NCBI GenBank assembly: GCA_036253495.1
Contig: GCA_036253495.1_4125.1
Source of the DNA: a phage
Strand: one strand, 5' to 3'
Length of the DNA stretch: 64,000 nt
Position 1 is the first letter of the stretch; the number at the start of each line of letters is the position of its first letter. The notes beneath the pieces were generated by a model. It did not search any database and was not told the DNA's origin. It was given only the letters and a program-made list of their open reading frames with translations. Shown one piece after another: positions 15,480-51,687 of the stretch. A program made the position numbers and the translations under genes.

Positions 15480-16015
15480 AAGACACTTGTATAGTAACGT
15501 ATGGACGTATAAATCCAGTGCATTTGGGACATGGGTTAATTTTTGATAAAGCCGTATCGATGAAAGAACAATACAATGCTGATTTAAAAATATACCTTAG
15601 TACTACACAAGATTGTATTAAGAATCCATTACCACCTGAATTGAAAATGTATTACACTGAGGGTTTCTATCCAAGAATTCAACACAACATCAGTACTGAA
15701 GATAATCTTTTTGATATTATGCAGGAATTGAATGGTAAGTACAGTGATGTTCTTTTCATATGTGGTTCAGACAGGATAGAAAACTTTCAAAATGTACTTG
15801 ACAGATACAATGGAAACTTGTATAATTTTCGTAATATAAAAGCAATCCAAGCTGGTATAGACCGAACCGTTAGCAAGTACAGTTCAACTGAAATGCGTTC
15901 TTTTGCTAAGCGTGATGATTTTGAAAGCTTCAGTTCTTATCTACCAGGTGATGATAATGACTTGAAAATAAAACTTTTTAAAGATGTAATAAAATACATG
16001 AGGAAAGAACCATGA
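15476..16015 (+). CDS. HxGH nucleotidyltransferase (cytidylyltransferase fold; possible NMN adenylyltransferase)
   Basis: 179 aa; N-terminal GRINPVHLGH signature of the (H/T)xGH nucleotidyltransferase superfamily; ATGA overlap with dam. Confidence 0.6.
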   Translation: MKDTCIVTYGRINPVHLGHGLIFDKAVSMKEQYNADLKIYLSTTQDCIKNPLPPELKMYYTEGFYPRIQHNISTEDNLFDIMQELNGKYSDVLFICGSDRIENFQNVLDRYNGNLYNFRNIKAIQAGIDRTVSKYSSTEMRSFAKRDDFESFSSYLPGDDNDLKIKLFKDVIKYMRKEP

Positions 16016-18035: not shown

Positions 18036-18295
18036 ACTATAATGATTTACAATTCACGTATCAACTTTTATATGATGATATGAATAACGAATTAGGTTTC
18101 TACTATGAAGTACGTAATAAAATATGGTCAAATTATCTATCTGAGATACAACATCATTTTATAGGACTTCCAATACGTAGAAATAATAAAAACTATCGTT
18201 GTACTGATGTAGTAAGTCATAGAGGTAGGTTGCGTTTAGAATTCTACCGCAGAGACGGGGACTTCATTGGTATAAATTTACTGGATTTTAAATGA
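18032..18295 (+). CDS. small protein, IG-motif paralog family
   Basis: 87 aa; MNYNDLQFTYQ...IQHHFIGLPI. Confidence 0.65.
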   Translation: MNYNDLQFTYQLLYDDMNNELGFYYEVRNKIWSNYLSEIQHHFIGLPIRRNNKNYRCTDVVSHRGRLRLEFYRRDGDFIGINLLDFK

Positions 18296-18358
18296 TGAAA
18301 AACAACTTAAAGGAAATACAAGTATTTTATAGATTCTTATACTTGTCATATGTAACAG

Positions 18359-18580
18359 ATGAGTACTATGAAAGTGTGTATTATTTTTTTATGGCAACAT
18401 TACCGTACTATAGTAAGAGATTTATATATAGGAAAATCTATCATATCCAATGGTGAAAAATGTACCTGTACAGATGTTGTTAGTTTTAATGGTTCTTTAA
18501 CACTGTGTTTCAGATGCGATAATAATAGTGGGTCATTTTCATTAAACGTATATCAGTTAGAAGGAATAAATTTTGAATAA
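18359..18580 (+). CDS. small protein, IG-motif paralog family
   Basis: 73 aa; RDLYIGKSII...CTCTDVVSFNGSL resembles neighbours. Confidence 0.55.
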   Translation: MSTMKVCIIFLWQHYRTIVRDLYIGKSIISNGEKCTCTDVVSFNGSLTLCFRCDNNSGSFSLNVYQLEGINFE

Positions 18581-18773
18581 GTGTCCATATTGTAACAGTA
18601 CTCAATTAGCTCGTTTCCGCTTAGATTCAGACTGGGCCACTGGTGCTGGGGATTTCTTTCCCATCAATGATGATGCGGAATACACTGAAGAACAGCACAA
18701 AGATTTTGATAAATCATGGCGACCTGACATTGAGTGCATTTATTGCCTTAATTGTGAGCGTGTACATGACTAA
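18573..18773 (+). CDS. small zinc-ribbon protein
   Basis: 66 aa; CPYCN ... CIYCLNC cysteine pairs. Confidence 0.55.
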   Translation: MNKCPYCNSTQLARFRLDSDWATGAGDFFPINDDAEYTEEQHKDFDKSWRPDIECIYCLNCERVHD

Positions 18774-19029
18774 AGCTGAACTAATAGTTCATACATATAA
18801 AATGATATACAGTACTGAGTTATCCTGTGGTGCAGATAATCCAGTACTGGACTATTTTATAGAATCTTTGAAAGAACATTATATTGGTAAATCACTGATT
18901 CTTAATAATATTAATTTCACTGTAAAGGATGTAGCACCTGGAAAAAACGTACTAATAGTATGTGTTACTTCATCTGATAACCCAGTATACCCAATAACAA
19001 TAATTTTTGAGGTATTAGGTGATTTATGA
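18766..19029 (+). CDS. small protein, IG-motif paralog family
   Basis: Track ORF 18643..19029 trimmed to ATG overlapping upstream stop; LKEHYIGKSLIL. Confidence 0.6.
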   Translation: MTKAELIVHTYKMIYSTELSCGADNPVLDYFIESLKEHYIGKSLILNNINFTVKDVAPGKNVLIVCVTSSDNPVYPITIIFEVLGDL

Positions 19030-19316
19030 ATATCATTTTAATACAGAAAACATATGCTATATTGGTGAAAGATTATTCCATTACATTCGATTCACAAGAA
19101 AGTGCTCTACATAACCTATACAAAAACGTAACACAAGAATACAGAAATATGTTTTCTGACTTAGTAGTAGGAAGATATTTCAGTACTAGAAAATATCCAA
19201 AACTTCAAGCAGAGGATGTTTCTTTTTATTTCAATGGTCATATTACTATTCATAGTTTAGACCAAAATTCACCAACGTACTTAAACTTTTCATTCGATGA
19301 GGTAACCTTTTTATGA
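19026..19316 (+). CDS. hypothetical protein
   Basis: ORF track; ATGA overlap. Confidence 0.6.
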   Translation: MNIILIQKTYAILVKDYSITFDSQESALHNLYKNVTQEYRNMFSDLVVGRYFSTRKYPKLQAEDVSFYFNGHITIHSLDQNSPTYLNFSFDEVTFL

Positions 19317-19495
19317 GAACATTATTTTTTATCTGGAGTCTTTTTTCTCTTGCAGTACTGACAGTTGCAGGTGCTTATTCATTTTTAACAATGAATACAT
19401 GGTATATCAATTTACTATTTCCAATTGTCGGTGTAGGTTTAGGATTTACTTTACATAGTGTATGTAAGGATTTCAATGACAAATCAAACAAATGA
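19313..19495 (+). CDS. small hydrophobic (membrane) protein
   Basis: 60 aa, two hydrophobic segments. Confidence 0.5.
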   Translation: MRTLFFIWSLFSLAVLTVAGAYSFLTMNTWYINLLFPIVGVGLGFTLHSVCKDFNDKSNK

Positions 19496-46200: not shown

Positions 46201-46228
46201 AGGGGATTCTTATAATCCCCTATATTAA
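46201..46228 (+). terminator. probable rho-independent terminator
   Basis: Perfect 8 bp hairpin aggggatt/aatcccct; downstream tract is AT-rich rather than a clean T-run. Confidence 0.4.
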
Positions 46229-46252: not shown

Positions 46253-46465
46253 ATGATAACTATCAATTACTTTTCACTATGCTTTGTTTATTTTGTTGTT
46301 GTATTTCTAGCAGTTGTAGCGTACAATAATATTAAATGTATATATAAAATTATCAAAAACAAAGAGAAATTCAATGGATGGATGATATATCACATTGTCA
46401 TCTCGGTTGTGTGTATCTTATTTGTATACGATTTGAGTTCATTAGGTACAGTAGGTAAGCTATGA
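46253..46465 (+). CDS. small membrane protein
   Basis: 70 aa, two hydrophobic helices. Confidence 0.55.
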   Translation: MITINYFSLCFVYFVVVFLAVVAYNNIKCIYKIIKNKEKFNGWMIYHIVISVVCILFVYDLSSLGTVGKL

Positions 46466-47214
46466 TTTCTGACTCTTTTATAAAAAATAAAGGTAATAAA
46501 CGTGTATTGGTTATTTCCGGTGCAGGTCTATCCGTTGAAAGTGGGATGGAACCGTTTCGCATGGACGATGGCCTATGGGATCAATTTCAAATAAATGATG
46601 TATGTAACATTGCACGTCTTAGTACTAAGTATCATTTAGTACACACTTTCTATAATACATTACGTGTTAAAATGAAAGATTGTGTTCCTAATGATATGCA
46701 TTATTATATCAAATCTATAGAAGATACATACGGTGATAACTTTTTACATATGACTTCGAATATGGATGATCTCTATACTCGTATTGGTGGCAATGAATTA
46801 AAGTTACATGGTAATTTAAAAGAAGTTATTGAGAATTTTACAATTGGTGGTGACGATTATAGTATTGTGGATTGTGGTTATGAACCGTACATTCCGAAAG
46901 AAGGTGTCTTTGCGAAACCAAACGTAGTGTTCATTGGTGAATATTATCGTTATGTTGATGGTGAAAAACTCCCAATATACGATGAGCGTAATTTAGTATT
47001 GCAATCCTTAACAGAAGATGATACAGTTGTAGTCATTGGTAGCAGTGACACAGTACTGAAATGGTCACATCTGGTTGCGTGTTTACCATGCTTTAGTGTT
47101 AATATCAACATCAGAAAAAATGATAACGATTTCATGTTCAATGAAAAAATTATAAAACCAGCTACAAAAGCGATTCCAGTACTGGAAACTATCATTAAGG
47201 ATAGAATGAAATGA
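46462..47214 (+). CDS. Sir2-family NAD-dependent protein (deacylase/ADP-ribosyltransferase/NADase family)
   Basis: 250 aa; Rossmann motif ISGAGLSVESGMEPFR and catalytic-region LHGN; ATGA overlaps at both ends. Confidence 0.75.
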   Translation: MISDSFIKNKGNKRVLVISGAGLSVESGMEPFRMDDGLWDQFQINDVCNIARLSTKYHLVHTFYNTLRVKMKDCVPNDMHYYIKSIEDTYGDNFLHMTSNMDDLYTRIGGNELKLHGNLKEVIENFTIGGDDYSIVDCGYEPYIPKEGVFAKPNVVFIGEYYRYVDGEKLPIYDERNLVLQSLTEDDTVVVIGSSDTVLKWSHLVACLPCFSVNINIRKNDNDFMFNEKIIKPATKAIPVLETIIKDRMK

Positions 47215-47759
47215 TTCGAGAAGTACCTCTAGGTGAGTATGGTAAACGAGCAAACTTTGTATTCTGTTACTTCTTTGCTCGAAATTGTAACCCATATAAA
47301 GGTTATGATTTAAATGATATCCCTGTTGTGAATCTGGTATTACTCCAGCTTCGTTGGGATGGTTTACTGGGTGGTTGTGGTGGAACAGTTGAAGATACCG
47401 ATGCCACCTTAGAAGATGCACTATTCCGTGAAATTCAGGAAGAGATGGATTATAATATTTTCATCGAACAACTGAAACCATTGAAAACTTACGAACTATA
47501 TCCAGGAGCACATACTCATAGCTATAGTTATGAAGTTACTTACGAAGAATTGAAAGCGATTCGCGATGGATACTGTACTGCTAAACATGCAAGTGCAGAA
47601 GTGGCTGGTGTTAATTTATGTCACATTTCTCGTTATTCAAAGGGACAAAACCGAGAAGCAGGATATAATAATCTTATGACACAAAACTTCATAGGAACTG
47701 CTAAAATGGAATTAGAACATCTTGTTCAATCCGAGAATTTACTGATTAGTTACTTATAA
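47211..47759 (+). CDS. Nudix hydrolase-like protein
   Basis: 182 aa; Nudix-box-like GGCGGTVED...REIQEEMD with slightly non-canonical spacing. Confidence 0.55.
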   Translation: MIREVPLGEYGKRANFVFCYFFARNCNPYKGYDLNDIPVVNLVLLQLRWDGLLGGCGGTVEDTDATLEDALFREIQEEMDYNIFIEQLKPLKTYELYPGAHTHSYSYEVTYEELKAIRDGYCTAKHASAEVAGVNLCHISRYSKGQNREAGYNNLMTQNFIGTAKMELEHLVQSENLLISYL

Positions 47760-47770
47760 GGTGAATTATA

Positions 47771-48103
47771 ATGTCTTACTCAATGTTTCTGGATGATATT
47801 CGTGATCCTGAAAAGTATTATCCAAATCAAAACATGGTTTTATGTCGTGATTATGAAAGTGCATGTGCTTATGTAAATGAACATGGTTTACCACAATTTA
47901 TTAGCTTCGATCATGACTTAGGTGATGTTGGGGAGGATGAAAAAACAGGGTATTCATTTGCAAAATTTCTAATTGATTATATGGTCGAAAACAATATCAG
48001 TACTGGATTCGATTATATTATTCATAGCAGTAATCCTGTAGGGAAGGTCAACATTGACACATACTTACAGAATGGTTTTAGATTTTTGAGAGGGGACAAT
48101 TGA
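47771..48103 (+). CDS. hypothetical protein (conserved-looking FLDDIRDP / DHDLG / HSSNPVG motifs)
   Basis: 110 aa; immediately downstream of the Sir2-Nudix pair. Confidence 0.6.
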   Translation: MSYSMFLDDIRDPEKYYPNQNMVLCRDYESACAYVNEHGLPQFISFDHDLGDVGEDEKTGYSFAKFLIDYMVENNISTGFDYIIHSSNPVGKVNIDTYLQNGFRFLRGDN

Positions 48104-48399
48104 CAAAACATCATATACAAAGCTTTATAATCACAAGTGTTATATTTCTTGTTGTGTTTTGGTTCTTCTATCATCAAGATCAAACCAAGCACCGAAATAT
48201 ATACTACCGTACTGCTGTTGTTACTGACATAGGGCAGTGTGAAGAAAATACATGTTCATTTACTTATAAGACTGAAGATGGGTCTATTAAGTATGGAGCA
48301 TCAAGGAAACCAGTTTCAGTTGGGCAAATTGTTTACAATGAATGCTGGACAGAAAAGGCTCGCGGTCACCGCTGCTACGTTGACTATGAGCCACAATAA
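48100..48399 (+). CDS. small membrane protein
   Basis: 99 aa; N-terminal hydrophobic helix; ATGA overlap. Confidence 0.55.
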   Translation: MTKHHIQSFIITSVIFLVVFWFFYHQDQTKHRNIYYRTAVVTDIGQCEENTCSFTYKTEDGSIKYGASRKPVSVGQIVYNECWTEKARGHRCYVDYEPQ

Positions 48400-48463
48400 G
48401 AAGTGTCTGAGTCTATAATCTACCGTAGAGCACAAGGATGTGCTCATAACTCAAGGATGTTTT

Positions 48464-49903
48464 ATGAAAAAATACACAATTGACACAAACGTACTACTAT
48501 CCGATCCAAATGCAACCGTAGCATTTGATGGGGCAGCAGTGATTCTACCATTCACTGTTCTTGAAGAACTTGATTCAATCAAGAGCCGTAATGTTGACGT
48601 ATCACGTGATGCACGTTTCGCAATCCGTAACATCGATGCAATTCTGAAAGATGCTACTCATGAAGAAATCAGCAGTACTGGTGTTAATATTGCCAATATC
48701 CACAAAAATATGGATGCATCCAGTAAGCTATTCGTTATGACGAATGAAGAAGCTGAAGCACTTATTCGTATGGGCGGCAGTGAAGATAAAGTAGAAACTC
48801 TACTTAAAAGTACTGTACCAGATGACAAAATCATTCTAGTGGCTTTGGCATCACAATCAGTACTGGTAACTCGCGACATTAACATGCGTATCAAAGCAAT
48901 GAGCTACGGTGTTGAGGTACAAGATTACCGTCATGACGTTGCAATCGAAGATAGTGAGTTGATTCATATTGGTCAGCACCACCTTGATATTGATTTCTGG
49001 AAAACATTCAGTGAAGTTAATAATGCTGAAATTAAATCCCAACAAGAAGGTCGCCGTCTATATCACTATATTCCAACCGCATTGATTCAAGATGTTCTAC
49101 CAGATAATCTATGTATTGGTGATTATCTATATGATAATGCTGATGTACTATTCGTATACGAAGGTCAATCTGCTATCGAAGAAGAAGACGGTTCACTAAC
49201 ACCTGAAGATATTTTGGTATTCCAGGATATTGGTCAAAGTATCGCTCTTCGTGCTAAAGTTTGGGATATTAAAGCAAAGAATATTCAACAGGCACTAGCA
49301 ATTAACAGTATTCTTGACCCTGATGTACATTTGACAGTACTACTCGGTTCAGCAGGTACTGGTAAAACATTGATTACTGTTGCTACTTCACTCGAATTAG
49401 TGCTGGAAAAACGTAAATACGATCGTATAATCTTCTCCAAAACACAAGATTCTCAATTTGAAGAAATTGGTTTCTTGCCTGGTTCTGAAGCTGAAAAGGT
49501 CATCCCATTCTGTGGGGCTGCAATCGATGCTCTAGAGTATCTACACAAAGATGATGCTAACCCACAAGGTAGCATTGAAGAGATTCTCAAACGTAACGTA
49601 ATGCAGTTTAAAGCATTGAACTTTATTCGTGGTCGTTCTTTCACTAATACAATTCTAATTGTAGATGAATTCCAGAACATCACCCCTGCACAGGCAAAGA
49701 CTATTCTTACCCGTGCTGGACAAAACTGTAAGGTTATCATTATGGGTAACTTAGCACAGATTGATAGTAAGTTTATTAGTCCAGTGAACAGTGGTTTGAC
49801 ATATGTAACTGAAAAATTCAAAGATTGGGAAGGTTGCCGTATCATTGAATTGGAAGGTGTAGTACGTTCTGCACTCGCTGAGTTTGCAGAAGAAAATATG
49901 TAA
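48464..49903 (+). CDS. phoH: PIN-domain / PhoH-like P-loop ATPase (PhoH2-type)
   Basis: Track ORF trimmed to ATG with AAGGA RBS; N-terminal PIN-like IDTNVLLSDP, Walker A LLGSAGTGKT, Walker B IVDEFQN. Confidence 0.85.
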   Translation: MKKYTIDTNVLLSDPNATVAFDGAAVILPFTVLEELDSIKSRNVDVSRDARFAIRNIDAILKDATHEEISSTGVNIANIHKNMDASSKLFVMTNEEAEALIRMGGSEDKVETLLKSTVPDDKIILVALASQSVLVTRDINMRIKAMSYGVEVQDYRHDVAIEDSELIHIGQHHLDIDFWKTFSEVNNAEIKSQQEGRRLYHYIPTALIQDVLPDNLCIGDYLYDNADVLFVYEGQSAIEEEDGSLTPEDILVFQDIGQSIALRAKVWDIKAKNIQQALAINSILDPDVHLTVLLGSAGTGKTLITVATSLELVLEKRKYDRIIFSKTQDSQFEEIGFLPGSEAEKVIPFCGAAIDALEYLHKDDANPQGSIEEILKRNVMQFKALNFIRGRSFTNTILIVDEFQNITPAQAKTILTRAGQNCKVIIMGNLAQIDSKFISPVNSGLTYVTEKFKDWEGCRIIELEGVVRSALAEFAEENM

Positions 49904-49910
49904 TCTATTA

Positions 49911-49939
49911 TTGACATTAAATGTGTTCATTGCTATAAT
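49911..49939 (+). promoter_or_regulatory. consensus sigma70 promoter (TTGACA-17-TATAAT)
   Basis: Perfect -35 and -10 hexamers with 17 nt spacer, about 32 nt upstream of 49972. Confidence 0.65.
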
Positions 49940-49971
49940 GAACACACCATTATCGAAGAAGGAAGTAAATC

Positions 49972-50160
49972 ATGGCTAAACAACCTAAGAAAAAAGAACC
50001 AGAAGTTAAAGTTAAAAAAGTGAAAGTTATTCAATCCAAAGAACAACGCACTTATGAGCTACGTAAAGCTGAAACTTTAAGTGGGCTTCAGTCTCTACGT
50101 AAGCAAGGTGTACTAACACGTGCACAATATCGTGAACTGGTTGCACAAAAAGGTTTTTGA
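49972..50160 (+). CDS. small highly basic protein, possible nucleic-acid-binding
   Basis: 62 aa; MAKQPKKKEPEVKVKKVKV...; GGAAG RBS; driven by consensus promoter. Confidence 0.65.
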   Translation: MAKQPKKKEPEVKVKKVKVIQSKEQRTYELRKAETLSGLQSLRKQGVLTRAQYRELVAQKGF

Positions 50161-50263
50161 TTTAACGCGTTTTTTTGGAGTTCTTAATAAATACTTTCAT
50201 AAGAATAATAATACTTTTTATGAATTTAAAAAGAACTCCATGTGTTATTTCAGTAAGTTTTTC

Positions 50264-50291
50264 ATCCCTGTCAATTGGCAGGGATTTTTTA
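50264..50291 (+). terminator. rho-independent terminator
   Basis: Hairpin atccctg/cagggat followed by TTTTTT; preceded by a 9 bp inverted repeat pair (50177-50185, 50231-50239). Confidence 0.6.
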
Positions 50292-50304
50292 TTGGTGGTA
50301 AACT

Positions 50305-51051
50305 ATGGATCTTGAAAAACAAACCGAAGCAATCATCACCGAACTAATCAAAATTGGTTATAAATGCCCATTTATCTATGGTTCGTGGAATACTTTTTGT
50401 TTGTATAAGTATGATGACAAATTACCAAATGATATTGATGTTATTAATATAGTACCAGAAGAGTTTGAAGAAGGTGAGTTCTCTGTAAAATTAGATTGTA
50501 TTGATATACCTGTCAATATTGAATGTATGACTCTCAATCATCTTCGTGTCGAATTAATGCGTGGTGATGTTAAATACTATACCATCGGTTTTGGTACTAT
50601 TGTACCGAAATGTGCAAATCATCTTTTGATGTACCTTGGTCATATCGGTTCGGTTATGATGACACGCCGTAACAGTGAGATTCGTAAAATTTGCAGTACT
50701 GCATCAGATAAAGCCTTTAATAAAGGAAAAAAGAAGTTGACAGTACTGGAAGATTACGATAAGATGTTAGGACTAAAGAACATCTGGCATAGCATTCACT
50801 TCATCTATATCATTACGCATTATTACAATCTGTACAGATCCAACACTGAACATGAAATGAATATTGCGTCAATGAAACAAGAGTTTGATGTGCTTGAAAT
50901 GCTGAACATTCGCGACAACATATATAAGATATATGATGAAACATATGGTGATTATCATGTAAAAGCACAAGCTGTTATTGATTATGCGAAACCGATTCGT
51001 AACAAACTGATGACTGAATTTAGAAAATTATACCCCAAGGAGGATGTATGA
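50305..51051 (+). CDS. hypothetical protein, possible minimal nucleotidyltransferase fold
   Basis: 248 aa; N-terminal YGSW...(13)...NDIDVI resembles the GS...DxD pattern of Pol-beta-type nucleotidyltransferases (weak). Confidence 0.6.
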   Translation: MDLEKQTEAIITELIKIGYKCPFIYGSWNTFCLYKYDDKLPNDIDVINIVPEEFEEGEFSVKLDCIDIPVNIECMTLNHLRVELMRGDVKYYTIGFGTIVPKCANHLLMYLGHIGSVMMTRRNSEIRKICSTASDKAFNKGKKKLTVLEDYDKMLGLKNIWHSIHFIYIITHYYNLYRSNTEHEMNIASMKQEFDVLEMLNIRDNIYKIYDETYGDYHVKAQAVIDYAKPIRNKLMTEFRKLYPKEDV

Positions 51052-51114: not shown

Positions 51115-51672
51115 ATGTTCTTTGACCAAACATTTACGTTGTACCATGATTCTGGAAAAGTAGAGATTGTTGATAATCTTCTACAATATATTGCTGACCA
51201 CGAAGGGGTTGATCTATTTCACAGCAAAATGAAATTTGATTTATCCGAGTTCAACAAGAAGAATCGTGAATCATTCTGGAAAAATCGTTTCTATTACGAA
51301 ATGTATCCTGAAAAGTTTGTAGGTTATTATCTCTGTACTGAAAAAGGTTTATTAGTATCGCCTGATTTACTTATGGGTGAATACATGGTTCTCTATAATG
51401 AGTACTGGGAACATAAACGTAAGGCCCGTGACACCGAATGGCGACACAAACGCTCTTACATGTACAAGCATAACCATTCTCGCTACAAACGTCCTAAGAC
51501 CCAACAAGAGCGTCGTATGGCGTGTGCAGTACTGAAGGATGATGGTGAACCTGATATTCGTGGAAAACGCAAGATGCGTTCACTACCGACATATTGGGAC
51601 GATTTTAGAACAAGACACAGTACTGGCTGGAAATACAGTACTAAGCGTAAAAAACAATACAAAGGGAGCTAA
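51115..51672 (+). CDS. hypothetical basic protein
   Basis: 185 aa; Arg/Lys-rich C-terminal half. Confidence 0.65.
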   Translation: MFFDQTFTLYHDSGKVEIVDNLLQYIADHEGVDLFHSKMKFDLSEFNKKNRESFWKNRFYYEMYPEKFVGYYLCTEKGLLVSPDLLMGEYMVLYNEYWEHKRKARDTEWRHKRSYMYKHNHSRYKRPKTQQERRMACAVLKDDGEPDIRGKRKMRSLPTYWDDFRTRHSTGWKYSTKRKKQYKGS

Positions 51673-51687
51673 TGCTCCCTATTTTTA
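51664..51687 (+). terminator. probable rho-independent terminator
   Basis: Hairpin gggagc taat gctccc followed by TATTTTTA; overlaps the stop codon. Confidence 0.5.

What the first reader, a model, noticed from the sequence alone, without database searches (positions are those of the whole stretch)
48464..50291. PIN-PhoH fusion followed by a perfect consensus sigma70 promoter driving a small lysine-rich protein and a structured 3-prime region
The PhoH-like ATPase has an N-terminal PIN-like nuclease domain. Directly downstream is a textbook TTGACA-17-TATAAT promoter, a 62 aa highly basic protein, then a region with a 9 bp inverted-repeat pair 45 nt apart and a terminator. The basic protein could bind DNA or RNA, and the structured region could be an sRNA or attenuator.
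Basis: partly seen in the sequence, partly recalled or inferred. Interest (0 to 1): 0.4.

Follow-up and report, generated by a model that had tools for sequence, protein, structure and literature searches.

The report
Conserved RNA hairpin in jumbo phages
In a giant E. coli phage, a strong host-type promoter drives a tiny basic protein whose transcript ends in a folded RNA that related giant phages of several genera also carry, even where the protein gene has been lost, so the uncharacterised RNA looks like the important part.

Summary
The window is an Asteriusvirus (Rak2-like jumbo coliphage), 99% identical to phage A4. These are a PIN+PhoH protein, a perfect TTGACA-17-TGnTATAAT promoter, a 62-aa basic ORF, a 9-bp inverted repeat 45 nt apart, and an intrinsic terminator.

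The PIN-PhoH fusion is the known PhoH2 architecture and has already been noted in jumbo phages, so it is ordinary. The small ORF is a real gene under purifying selection. It belongs to a tiny phage-only family (phrog_24119) of unknown function, and I found no evidence that it binds nucleic acid.

The new result concerns the "structured 3' region". Within Asteriusvirus it is more conserved than the codons upstream (19% variable columns against 40-71%). A homologous hairpin-plus-terminator sits at the same syntenic position in Eneladusvirus, Mimasvirus, unclassified Erwinia phages and Xanthomonas phages. It carries an invariant (G)ACUCCAUGU(U)GUU tract. Mimasvirus-like phages have lost the small gene but kept the promoter, RNA and terminator.

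Helix P1 shows covariation and G·U-only substitutions on the + strand. Twelve of 16 relatives, but not this window, also have a terminator/antiterminator alternative. No Rfam family matches.

The most likely reading is an undescribed regulatory RNA. Whether it acts in trans or in cis is unresolved.

The parts
48464..49903 (+). PhoH2-type protein, 479 aa. N-terminal PIN domain (aa 4-156, nt ~48473-48931) and C-terminal PhoH ATPase (aa 269-473, nt ~49268-49882). Read directly: PIN acidic residues (IDTN, LEELD, PDDK, TRDIN), Walker A GSAGTGKT, Walker B LIVDEFQ.
   Evidence: Pfam. phrog_2765, E 3.4e-161. NCBIfam RNA5-3helPhoH2, 162.7 bits, below the equivalog cut-off of 680. PDB 3b85 PhoH, E 2.9e-21. 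Annotated PhoH-like in phage A4.
49911..49939 (+). Sigma-70 consensus promoter: -35 TTGACA (49911-49916), 17-nt spacer, extended -10 TGcTATAAT (49931-49939).
   Evidence: The extended -10 has 1 variable column of 9 among Asteriusvirus; the -35 has 4 of 6 variable. A promoter sits at the same position in other genera.
49923..49945 (.). Perfect 9-bp palindrome GTGTTCATT / AATGAACAC straddling the -10 hexamer. Significance unknown; relatives have different palindromes here.
   Evidence: Read directly. Relatives compared.
49972..50160 (+). Small basic protein gene, 62 aa, phrog_24119. Predicted disordered K-rich tail (aa 1-22), helix 23-44, turn QGVLT, helix 50-59. Conserved core LxxLR+xGVL(T/S)RxQ(Y/F)R...KG.
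   Evidence: Third codon positions are 71% variable against 40% for first and second positions, which indicates purifying selection.
50163..50247 (+). Conserved structured RNA hairpin. Outer helix UAACGCG (50163-50169) pairs with UGUGUUA (50241-50247). Helix GGAGUUCUU (50177-50185) pairs with AAGAACUCC (50231-50239). Inner helices lie around AUAAAUA (50187-50193) and the AAUAAUAA loop motif (50204-50211).
   Evidence: Fold. Conservation. Family homology. CM hit 50171-50290 on the + strand, the only hit in the window.
50231..50251 (+). Invariant tract AAGAACTCCATGTGTTATTTC. It has 0 variable columns among Asteriusvirus. It contains ACUCCAUGU, the core shared with all other genera as GACUCCAUGUUGUU.
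50264..50291 (+). Intrinsic terminator: AUCCCUGUC-AAUU-GGCAGGGAU followed by U6. It ends the PhoH2 and small-gene transcripts. It is annotated as a terminator in phages G17 and UE-S1.
50305..51051 (+). Downstream 248-aa gene ('NT248'). Its RBS and ATG begin 14 nt after the terminator U-tract with no promoter in between. It is syntenic with the RNA element in most genera and absent from 121Q-type Asteriusvirus.

Best explanation
Shown:
- Positions 49911-50291 form one short transcription unit read by host sigma-70 RNA polymerase.
- A consensus promoter drives a small basic protein gene. The transcript ends, at a strong intrinsic terminator, in a roughly 125-nt structured RNA (hairpin, A/U-rich linker, terminator).
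- This RNA module is the evolutionarily constant part of the locus across Rak2-like jumbo phages.

Inferred:
- The module works as RNA, not as DNA or protein.
- In this phage it is most likely a 3'-UTR-borne small regulatory RNA. It would be released or stabilised as the 3' end of the early transcript.
- Its invariant ACUCCAUGUGUUAUUUC tract and A/U-rich linker next to a U-tailed terminator would be the business end, through base-pairing or binding of a conserved host or phage factor.
- The upstream PhoH2 (PIN RNase plus RNA helicase) is an ordinary member of a known family. The small protein is a lineage-restricted accessory that the RNA does not need in cis.
For: - Conservation within Asteriusvirus. 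Positions 50177-50290 have 19% variable columns and 0.935 mean pairwise identity. The small CDS has 71% variable third positions and 40% variable first and second positions. Fisher p = 3e-11 and 9e-4.
- Copy number. The element is single-copy in each of 36 phage records at 90-96% identity.
- Other genera. The same module (AUAAAUA ... AAUAAUAA ... GACUCCAUGUUGUU, then a terminator) follows the homologous small gene in Hallingskeid, XaC1, Yen9-04, BF and metagenomic jumbo contigs.
- Synteny. cREC-TM-PhoH2-[small gene]-element-NT248-p185 is conserved.
- Loss of the small gene. In GAP32, CBB and 4 other Mimasvirus-like loci the small gene is gone. A TGnTATAAT promoter, a remnant of the gene's 3' end, the RNA and the terminator remain.
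- Separability. In contig L014 the module sits upstream of the small gene, so the two can be separated.
- Helix P1. 87% of cells are paired, against 36-58% in slid controls. Five of 14 pairs change on both sides. The covariation score is reached by 1 of 500 shuffles. Core substitutions are A>G and C>U on the 5' strand, which keep G·U pairs only in the + strand RNA.
- Strand. + strand CM scores are 50-90 bits, against 17-28 bits on the - strand.
- Shape. Terminator with U6 preceded by an unpaired A/U-rich stretch, as in Hfq-type sRNAs (established knowledge).
Against: - There are no expression data for any of these phages.
- In this window half of the invariant tract is buried in the GGAGUUCUU/AAGAACUCC helix.
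- No enriched complementary target was found in the 64-kb window.
- Twelve of 16 relatives carry an antiterminator-like helix competing with the terminator. The element nearly always sits directly in front of NT248. Both points favour a cis role, at least ancestrally.
- The CM link between the window's element and the other genera is weak on score alone (20 bits, E about 0.2). It rests on synteny plus shared motifs.
- The sequence set is small and related, so the covariation statistics are modest.
Confidence: 0.4

Rival explanations
1. Cis-acting transcription attenuator or antitermination element. The hairpin and a factor bound to it decide whether RNA polymerase stops at the terminator or reads through into NT248 and the genes beyond. 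The factor could be the small basic protein, a host protein, or ribosomes terminating on the small ORF. This would be analogous to leader attenuators, lambda N-nut or HK022 put.
For: - NT248's RBS and ATG start 14-25 nt after the U-tract with no intervening promoter, in the window and in all other genera.
- In 12 of 16 non-Asteriusvirus members an upstream segment (UGGCCUU) pairs with the terminator's 5' arm (AAGGCCA). Duplex energy is -9 to -14 kcal/mol against -3 to -6 for shuffles.
- In four members the minimum-energy fold contains this helix in place of the terminator hairpin or with it altered.
- The two strands change together in Hallingskeid (GGGCUU / AAGCCC) and in L024 (AUUAGUGCCU / AGGCCACUAAU).
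- The small ORF's stop codon lies only 0-8 nt (4 nt in Yen9-04/BF) before the antiterminator's 5' strand.
Against: - The window and all Asteriusvirus members have no antiterminator. Duplex energy is no better than shuffles, and the terminator state is favoured by about 10-15 kcal/mol.
- 121Q-type phages lack NT248 yet keep the element at more than 90% identity.
- In L014 the element is separated from NT248 by a promoter, the small gene and a second terminator copy.
- Mimasvirus-like phages lack the small protein, so it cannot be an obligatory partner.
Confidence: 0.25
2. No dedicated regulatory role. The hairpin plus terminator is a 3'-end protection and insulation module for the PhoH2 and small-gene mRNAs. 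It is kept uniform because such promoter/terminator cassettes are the places where homologous recombination swaps genes, as with PeSLs.
For: - The locus is an indel hot spot. NT248 is present or absent. A 426-aa gene is inserted in JNE01. A YadA-anchor gene is inserted in L014-L016 together with a duplicated terminator. The small gene is present or absent.
- Genomes are mosaic. Only 54% of the window aligns to 121Q at 79% identity, with scattered patches of at least 95% identity.
- Stable 3' hairpins protect mRNAs from 3' exonucleases (established knowledge).
Against: - Recombination within a genus cannot explain a 14-nt invariant tract, invariant loop motifs and a covarying helix across five genus-level groups whose flanking proteins are 35-77% identical.
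- A generic protective hairpin needs no conserved loop or bulge sequence.
- The element is single-copy, unlike PeSLs.
Confidence: 0.15
3. DNA-level element. Candidates are a late promoter (the ATAAATA motif proposed for Rak2-like late genes), a protein operator, or a replication or recombination site formed by the nested inverted repeats.
For: - ATAAATA is invariant in all 26 sequences. It matches the late-promoter motif predicted for CBB and GAP32 (PMC5259590).
- The element is an AT-rich palindrome. The DNA of the minus strand also folds better than shuffles (z -5.6).
Against: - The substitutions in P1 are wobble-compatible only on the + strand RNA.
- The base before ATAAATA varies (A, G or C), unlike T4-type TATAAATA.
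- A transcript started there would lack the covarying 5' strand of P1.
- ATAAATA is common by chance in a 64% A+T genome.
Confidence: 0.08
4. The small protein, the RNA or both are partners of the adjacent PhoH2. The protein would be a PhoAT/VapB-like inhibitor, or the RNA a dedicated substrate or decoy, of the PIN RNase-helicase.
For: - Linkage of PhoH2 with the promoter-RNA unit is conserved in every genus examined.
- Mycobacterial PhoH2 is co-expressed with a small interacting protein, PhoAT (PMC7390352).
Against: - PhoAT lies upstream and is co-transcribed. Here the gene upstream of PhoH2 is a 99-aa membrane protein, and the small gene has its own promoter downstream.
- The small gene is absent from Mimasvirus-like phages, and other genes are inserted between it and PhoH2 in several phages.
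- RaK2-type phages have PhoH2 and the small protein but no element.
Confidence: 0.08

Closest known systems
PhoH2 proteins (PIN RNase fused to PhoH RNA helicase; mycobacterial PhoH2/PhoAT, Andrews & Arcus)
   Same: Same two-domain architecture, with intact PIN acidic residues and Walker A/B motifs. The fusion has already been noted in jumbo phages (PMC7824862).
   Different: Scores far below the NCBIfam equivalog cut-off (163 against 680 bits). It is phage-encoded. No PhoAT-like upstream partner was seen (the upstream gene is a membrane protein). Activity is untested.
3'-UTR-derived, Hfq-type small RNAs of enterobacteria (e.g. CpxQ, SroC, DapZ; from my own knowledge)
   Same: The RNA shares the terminator of a parent mRNA. 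The 3' region is more conserved than the coding region. It has a stem-loop, an A/U-rich stretch and a U-tailed terminator. In some relatives it has its own promoter.
   Different: No expression, processing, Hfq-binding or target evidence exists. It is phage-encoded. Part of the conserved tract is base-paired. No sequence or structure match to any Rfam family.
Transcription attenuators and processive antitermination RNAs (leader attenuators; lambda N-nut; HK022 put; from my own knowledge)
   Same: The order is promoter, structured RNA, terminator, then the next gene with no promoter of its own. Most relatives have mutually exclusive terminator and antiterminator helices. A small basic protein is encoded next to the RNA, as N is next to nutL.
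   Different: The window itself has no antiterminator. No boxA/boxB-like or put-like similarity was detected. The protein is dispensable in some lineages. The element persists where the downstream gene is deleted.
PeSL promoter-terminator cassettes of T4-like phages (PMC2839356, PMC4122927)
   Same: A conserved regulatory cassette (stem-loop terminator next to a sigma-70-type promoter) flanks gene insertions and deletions between related phages.
   Different: As I recall them, PeSLs are short and present in many copies per genome (not checked in the papers). This element is single-copy, about 125 nt long, has extra conserved helices and motifs, and is conserved across genera.
ncRNAs found by RNA-seq in the related jumbo phage PA5oct (PMC7318152)
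   Same: These are abundant non-coding transcripts in a phage of the same broad clade, which also depends on host RNA polymerase.
   Different: No homology. The PA5oct ncRNAs resemble nothing except phage MIJ3, and PA5oct was not found by the motif scans.
SHOCT domain (Pfam PF09851), for the small protein
   Same: The helix-turn-helix pattern L..L+..G.L(T/S)...(F/Y) matches. There is a weak Pfam hit and a weak profile hit to a protein made of SHOCT-like repeats.
   Different: 14.6 bits against a gathering score of 27. Basic residues stand where SHOCT has acidic ones. The function of SHOCT itself is unknown.

Membership tests
PhoH2 (PIN-PhoH) | N-terminal PIN domain with the conserved acidic active-site residues | tested here: met
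   Pfam PIN_4, E 1.2e-21, aa 4-156. D in IDTN, E in LEELD, D in PDDK and D in TRDIN read from the translation.
PhoH2 (PIN-PhoH) | C-terminal PhoH P-loop ATPase with Walker A and B | tested here: met
   Pfam PhoH, E 9.6e-44. GSAGTGKT and LIVDEFQ present. PDB 3b85, E 2.9e-21. NCBIfam PhoH2 model, 162.7 bits, below the equivalog cut-off of 680.
PhoH2 (PIN-PhoH) | ATP-dependent RNA unwinding and RNA cleavage | not testable with these tools
   Needs biochemistry.
PhoH2 (PIN-PhoH) | Co-transcribed small upstream partner (PhoAT) in the mycobacterial systems | tested here: not met
   The upstream gene (48100-48399) is a 99-aa membrane protein, phrog_14661. It ends 64 nt before PhoH2.
Sigma-70 promoter | -35 and -10 hexamers at 17 nt, extended -10 TG | tested here: met
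   12/12 match plus TG. Two perfect sites in 64 kb against 0.07 expected. The -10 is conserved in position across genera.
Sigma-70 promoter | Transcription starts there in infected cells | not testable with these tools
   No transcript data for Asteriusvirus were found.
Intrinsic terminator | G+C-rich stem-loop followed by a U-tract | tested here: met
   9-bp stem with 5 G-C pairs, 4-nt loop, U6. Invariant in Asteriusvirus apart from the loop.
Any described RNA family (Rfam 15) | Score at or above a family's gathering threshold | tested here: not met
   Best scores are 24 bits against thresholds of 37 to 141 bits, in the window and in two relatives. The hits are driven by the terminator.
Conserved structured RNA (the family defined here) | Same syntenic position, hairpin P1, motifs AUAAAUA / AAUAAUAA / ACUCCAUGU, then a terminator | tested here: met
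   Motifs at 50187-50193, 50204-50211 and 50235-50243. Synteny. A CM built without Asteriusvirus finds 50171-50290 (+) as the only window hit, but at only 20 bits, E about 0.2.
Trans-acting 3'-UTR / Hfq-type sRNA | U-tailed terminator preceded by an unpaired A/U-rich stretch and a stem-loop | tested here: met
   Predicted structure.
Trans-acting 3'-UTR / Hfq-type sRNA | Conserved, accessible seed complementary to target mRNAs | tested here: inconclusive
   A 21-nt invariant tract exists but is half base-paired. There is no excess of complementary sites in the window. The host and the rest of the phage genome were not searched.
Trans-acting 3'-UTR / Hfq-type sRNA | Accumulates as a discrete small RNA | not testable with these tools
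   Needs a Northern blot or RNA-seq.
Transcription attenuator / riboswitch-like leader | Antiterminator helix mutually exclusive with the terminator | tested here: not met
   In the window and all Asteriusvirus members the duplex energy is no better than shuffles. The terminator state is favoured by about 14 kcal/mol in the window and by about 10-15 kcal/mol across the Asteriusvirus members. The feature is met in 12 of 16 members from other genera.
Transcription attenuator / riboswitch-like leader | Lies between a promoter and a downstream gene that has no promoter of its own | tested here: met
   NT248's ATG is 14 nt after the U-tract. The same holds in other genera. It does not hold in 121Q-type phages, which lack NT248.
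PeSL cassette | Many homologous copies per genome in hyperplastic regions | tested here: not met
   One place per record in all 36 Asteriusvirus genomes. No second copy in the window at up to 3 mismatches or by CM.
SHOCT domain (small protein) | Pfam PF09851 at or above the gathering score | tested here: not met
   14.6 bits against 27, E 0.028.

The most novel reading that the evidence does not exclude
The hairpin is a jumbo-phage-specific regulatory RNA with a mechanism of its own. One possibility is a protein-independent or small-protein-assisted antitermination RNA that makes host RNA polymerase read through the adjacent terminator. Another is an anti-Shine-Dalgarno-like RNA (the ACUCC tract) that acts on host or phage translation. 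On this reading the small SHOCT-like basic protein is an optional cofactor, and the RNA has been retained across Rak2-like phages infecting Escherichia, Erwinia, Yersinia, Serratia, Cronobacter, Pectobacterium and Xanthomonas because it contacts a conserved host machine.
Probability: 0.2. Interest if true: 0.75.

Novelty: new member of a known kind. Interest (0 to 1): 0.5.

Why it matters
Rak2-like jumbo phages are being developed for therapy against E. coli, Klebsiella, Erwinia and other pathogens, yet more than 80% of their genes and all of their non-coding elements are uncharacterised.

This locus gives a concrete, testable candidate. It is a single-copy structured RNA with its own promoter and terminator. 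It is better conserved than the neighbouring proteins and is kept across several genera even when the flanking ORFs come and go.

If it is a trans-acting RNA, it would be one of few conserved sRNAs known in virulent phages. If it is an attenuator, it defines how a block of early genes is gated.

It also warns annotators. The current records annotate only a terminator, spurious ORFs or predicted promoters over it.

The PIN-PhoH fusion and the consensus promoter, by contrast, are ordinary.

Tried and rejected
- Rfam. I scanned the window region and two relatives. Nothing came near a gathering score.
- Micro-ORFs over the element (+ strand 75-aa and 46-aa ORFs, and 'MCYF...'). Rejected. A 4-nt indel, a 1-nt indel and a 20-nt deletion among relatives break the frames. 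Only the first 3-4 codons are alike across genera.
- T4-type late promoter reading of ATAAATA. Not favoured. The preceding base varies, and such a transcript would lack the covarying 5' strand of P1.
- PeSL membership. Rejected because the element is single-copy.
- Small protein as ribosomal protein bS21. This came from a remembered resemblance to KAGVLAEVRRRE. hhalign gives a probability of 0.2%, so it is rejected.
- Foldseek against the PDB (best E = 1.2, eL19 helices) and a PDB sequence profile search. The only PDB profile hit below E 0.2 is a de novo designed TIM barrel (7osu_A, E 0.0025, no qualifying stretch), which I treat as a chance match to a helical, low-complexity profile.
- Search for complementary targets of 50225-50262 in the window. 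Counts equal the chance expectation.
- MAFFT alignment of the non-Asteriusvirus elements (A4). It put P1's 5' strand out of register because of a 4-nt insertion. I replaced it with a manual, anchor-based alignment imported with N as padding (A7). MAFFT added two gap columns, and I took these into account.
- CM-made alignment A9. Not used for pair counts, because it mixes in minus-strand and partial hits.
- First structure job with phage-record sequences.
- Literature searches for AGTACT in jumbo phages and for ncRNAs in GAP32 or CBB. They found nothing relevant.
Full report
**What the window is**

The region is 99.1% identical to Escherichia phage A4 (Asteriusvirus, 355 kb). It is about 80% identical to 121Q, PBECO4, phAPEC6, G17 and about 30 other Rak2-like jumbo coliphages.
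- In A4 the three genes of the finding are annotated as 'PhoH-like protein' and two 'hypothetical proteins'.
- G17 and UE-S1 additionally annotate the terminator.
- Over the part of the window that aligns to 121Q (34.3 kb of 64 kb), identity is 79.5%.

**Check of the observation**

- The 479-aa protein (48464-49903) has Pfam PIN_4 (aa 4-156, E 1.2e-21) and PhoH (aa 269-473, E 9.6e-44).
- Eight bases after its stop codon lies TTGACA-17-TATAAT with an extended -10 TG (49911-49939, 12/12). Only two perfect sites occur in 64 kb, against 0.07 expected.
- The 62-aa ORF (49972-50160) has a good Shine-Dalgarno sequence and pI 10.4.
- GGAGTTCTT (50177-50185) and AAGAACTCC (50231-50239) are 45 nt apart.
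- The RNA of 50158-50296 folds to -42.5 kcal/mol, z = -6.8.
- A terminator follows: 9-bp stem at 50264-50285, then a U-tract.

**PhoH2**

The PIN-PhoH fusion is the known PhoH2 architecture, an RNA helicase coupled to a PIN RNase.
- It hits NCBIfam 'RNA 5'-3' helicase PhoH2' at 163 bits, far below the equivalog cut-off of 680. It also hits phrog_2765 and the PhoH structure 3b85.
- The PIN acidic residues and Walker motifs are intact.
- The fusion has already been described for jumbo phages (PMC7824862). Mycobacterial PhoH2 has been characterised with its small partner PhoAT (PMC7390352).
- Here the upstream gene is a membrane protein, not a PhoAT-like gene.
- This part of the finding is correct but ordinary.

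**Promoter**

- Among nine Asteriusvirus sequences the extended -10 is nearly invariant (1 of 9 columns varies). The -35 is not (4 of 6 vary). 121Q-type phages have GGGACA-17-TATAAT.
- RaK2 has its own perfect TTGACA-17-TATAAT before its homologue of the small gene.
- Eneladusvirus and Mimasvirus-like phages have TGnTATAAT with a TGAAAC/TGGAAC -35. This is the 'divergent RpoD-like' type described for CBB and GAP32 (PMC5259590).
- A promoter at this position is therefore conserved. The 'textbook' -35 is a lineage detail.
- The relative PA5oct depends on host RNA polymerase. No transcript data exist for Asteriusvirus.

**Small protein**

It is a real gene.
- Third codon positions vary in 71% of columns, against 40% for first and second positions.
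- Protein identity is 80-93% within the genus.
- Homologues of 80-98 aa exist in RaK2-type Klebsiella phages, Erwinia phage Hallingskeid, Xanthomonas phage XaC1 and metagenomic jumbo contigs.
- The family is tiny. It has 13 clusters at 90% identity and 7 representatives among 1.84 billion proteins. It is phrog_24119, function unknown.
- The conserved core is LxxLR+xGVL(T/S)RxQ(Y/F)R...KG.
- The lysine-rich N-terminus is specific to Asteriusvirus and RaK2. Distant members instead carry a 35-aa C-terminal extension.
- AlphaFold2 (pLDDT 79) gives a disordered tail and a helical hairpin.
- No significant fold or sequence relative exists. There is only a sub-threshold SHOCT-like pattern.
- Nucleic-acid binding remains a guess.

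**The 3' region within Asteriusvirus**

- The non-coding stretch 50177-50290 has 19% variable columns and 0.935 mean pairwise identity.
- The PhoH2-small gene spacer has 78% variable columns, and the 16 nt after the stop codon have 81%.
- The 21 nt AAGAACTCCATGTGTTATTTC (50231-50251) never vary.
- The element is more conserved than first and second codon positions (Fisher p = 9e-4) and than third positions (p = 3e-11).
- It occurs once per genome in 36 records at 90-96% identity.
- Indels of 1, 4 and 20 nt show that it is not coding.

**The same element in other genera**

- Behind the distant homologues of the small gene lies a related sequence: AAACAACAU-(UG)AUAAAUA-...-AAUAAUAA-...-GACUCCAUGUUGUUU, a short linker and an intrinsic terminator.
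- A pattern scan of IMG/VR and of metagenomes recovered it almost only from 300-380-kb contigs.
- BLAST finds it in GAP32, CBB, Serratia phage BF, Yersinia phages Yen9-03 and Yen9-04, six Erwinia pEa_SNUABM phages, Kaldavass, Hallingskeid, XbC2 and XaC1.
- Synteny is constant: cREC - membrane protein - PhoH2 - [0-2 extra genes] - [small gene] - element and terminator - NT248 (homologue of 50305-51051) - p185.

Three natural 'experiments' are informative.
- (a) In GAP32, CBB and four other Mimasvirus-like loci the small gene is absent. A TGnTATAAT promoter lies about 60 nt upstream of the hairpin. A remnant of the gene's last codons is still recognisable (AAUGGCACUCCAUUUCUGGCC against CAAUGGACUCGCACUUAAUUUCUGGCC).
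- (b) 121Q-type phages lack NT248 but keep the element.
- (c) In contigs L014-L016 the element follows an inserted YadA-anchor gene and precedes the small gene's promoter. The small gene then has only a copy of the terminator.

So the RNA module is separable from both neighbours, and it is the constant. RaK2-type phages lack it and have an unrelated AGTACT-palindrome hairpin instead.

**Structure and strand**

- Every member folds into hairpin P1 plus a terminator.
- The pair counts come from a manual anchor-based alignment of 13 distinct non-Asteriusvirus sequences. In it, P1 and P2 together have 87% of cells paired, against 36-58% when the partner is slid. Five of the 14 P1 pairs change on both sides. 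The covariation score is reached by 1 of 500 shuffles.
- The distal part of P1 differs completely between lineages yet stays complementary: AUAUA/UAUAU in Yen9-04, CGAAG/CUUCG in XaC1, CUA/UAG in Hallingskeid.
- The core 9 bp changes only by A>G or C>U on the 5' strand. These changes keep G·U pairs in the + strand RNA and would be mismatches on the other strand. There is one exception, in GAP32.
- A covariance model built without Asteriusvirus scores 50-90 bits on the + strand of its relatives and 17-28 bits on the - strand. It finds 50171-50290 (+) as the only hit in the window, but only at 20 bits, E about 0.2. Homology of the window's element therefore rests mainly on synteny and shared motifs.
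The 5' strand of the outer helix is variable and the 3' strand is invariant.

**Terminator/antiterminator alternative**

- In 12 of 16 non-Asteriusvirus members a segment just upstream of P1 (UGGCCUU) can pair with the 5' arm of the terminator (AAGGCCA). Duplex energy is -9 to -14 kcal/mol, against -3 to -6 for shuffles. The fraction of shuffles as good is 0-0.03 for ten of the twelve and 0.10-0.17 for L082 and L048.
- In four members the minimum-energy fold contains this helix in place of the terminator hairpin or with it altered.
- The two strands change together in Hallingskeid (GGGCUU/AAGCCC) and in L024.
- The window and all Asteriusvirus members, XaC1 and L023 lack it. In the Asteriusvirus members, including this window, and in XaC1 and L023, the terminator state is favoured by about 10-15 kcal/mol.

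**What it most likely is**

Shown:
- a conserved transcription unit made of promoter, small ORF, structured RNA and terminator;
- conservation of the RNA, with covariation, across genera;
- independence of the RNA from the ORF.

Inferred:
- It acts as RNA (probability about 0.8 overall).
- For this phage I favour a 3'-UTR-borne small regulatory RNA (0.4). It has a constitutive U-tailed terminator, an A/U-rich unpaired linker and an invariant tract. It persists without NT248 and, in relatives, without the ORF.
- A cis-acting attenuator or antitermination role (0.25) fits the relatives better. It would also explain how NT248 is expressed, since its start lies 14 nt after the U-tract with no promoter.
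- Less likely readings are a plain 3'-end/recombination cassette (0.15), a DNA site or late promoter (0.08), or a PhoH2 partner (0.08).
- These readings are not all mutually exclusive, so the probabilities need not sum to one.

**Novelty**

- No Rfam family matches.
- The genome records annotate only a terminator, small spurious ORFs or predicted promoters over the element.
- The papers I could search do not mention it.
- It is thus a new family of a known kind of thing: a phage-encoded structured regulatory RNA.
- The PIN-PhoH protein and the promoter are already-known kinds.

**Caveats**

- There are no expression data.
- The sequence set is small and phylogenetically structured.
- The manual alignment was imported with N padding.
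- The link between the Asteriusvirus form and the other genera is weak by model score alone.

Noticed in passing
window 1-64000: The palindrome AGTACT occurs 177 times against 17.8 +/- 4.1 expected, about ten-fold enrichment, mostly inside genes. None lies between 49342 and 50694. RaK2's hairpin after its small gene is built from two AGTACT sites. No paper mentioning this was found.
   Followed up: partly
window 46462-49903: Conserved gene string Sir2 (46462-47214), Nudt16-like NUDIX (47211-47759), cREC cyclic-phosphate receiver domain (47771-48103), 99-aa membrane protein (48100-48399), then PhoH2. It is syntenic across Rak2-like genera. It fits the NAD+/ADP-ribose and RNA-repair conflict systems discussed in PMC7824862.
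   Followed up: partly
window 50305-51051: The 248-aa gene is an indel. It is present in A4-type and JNE01-type phages and in most other genera, and absent from 121Q-type Asteriusvirus and RaK2. It has no Pfam or PHROG hit. By eye it has a GS...DxD pattern (YGSW...DIDV) like nucleotidyltransferase folds. It starts 14 nt after a strong terminator.
   Followed up: partly
window 49923-49945: A perfect 9-bp palindrome GTGTTCATT-GCTAT-AATGAACAC is centred on the -10 hexamer of the consensus promoter. Relatives have different palindromes at or just after their -10 (ATGATA...TATCAT in 121Q, TGTTAACA in EC.P1). It may be an operator or chance.
   Followed up: no
window 15798-15826: The only other perfect TTGACA-N17-TATAAT in the window.
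   Followed up: no
L014-L016 ~2021-2791; L006 1166-2446: The gap between PhoH2 and the small gene's promoter is an insertion hot spot. Three metagenomic Asteriusvirus contigs carry a 253-268-aa collagen-repeat / YadA-anchor gene there, with the RNA module and a duplicated terminator. JNE01 carries a 426-aa gene there. Hallingskeid and XaC1 have one or two extra genes there.
   Followed up: partly
L027, L094, L040, L046 (Mimasvirus-like loci), just upstream of the hairpin: The remnant of the small gene forms a 7-10-codon mini-ORF (e.g. AUG GCA CUC CAU UUC UGG CUU GUA GAA UGA) that overlaps the 5' strand of the putative antiterminator. CBB, GAP32 and L111 have AUU or ACG instead of AUG, so a leader-peptide reading is not consistent.
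   Followed up: partly
window 18293-19347 and about 20 other patches: Patches of at least 95-100% identity to 121Q sit in a background of 79% identity, and only 54% of the window aligns at all. This points to strong mosaicism and recent recombination between Asteriusvirus lineages.
   Followed up: no
window 46201-46221 and 51663-51680: Two hairpins score as terminators on both strands (AGGGGATT...AATCCCCT and AGGGAGC...GCTCCCT). They may be bidirectional terminators between + strand genes.
   Followed up: no
L123 (Yersinia phage fHe-Yen9-03) 1247-1280; L009 2750-2854: Public records place predicted -35/-10 signals (Yen9-03) or a 34-aa 'hypothetical protein' (Hallingskeid) on top of the conserved RNA hairpin. 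These are probably annotation artefacts.
   Followed up: partly
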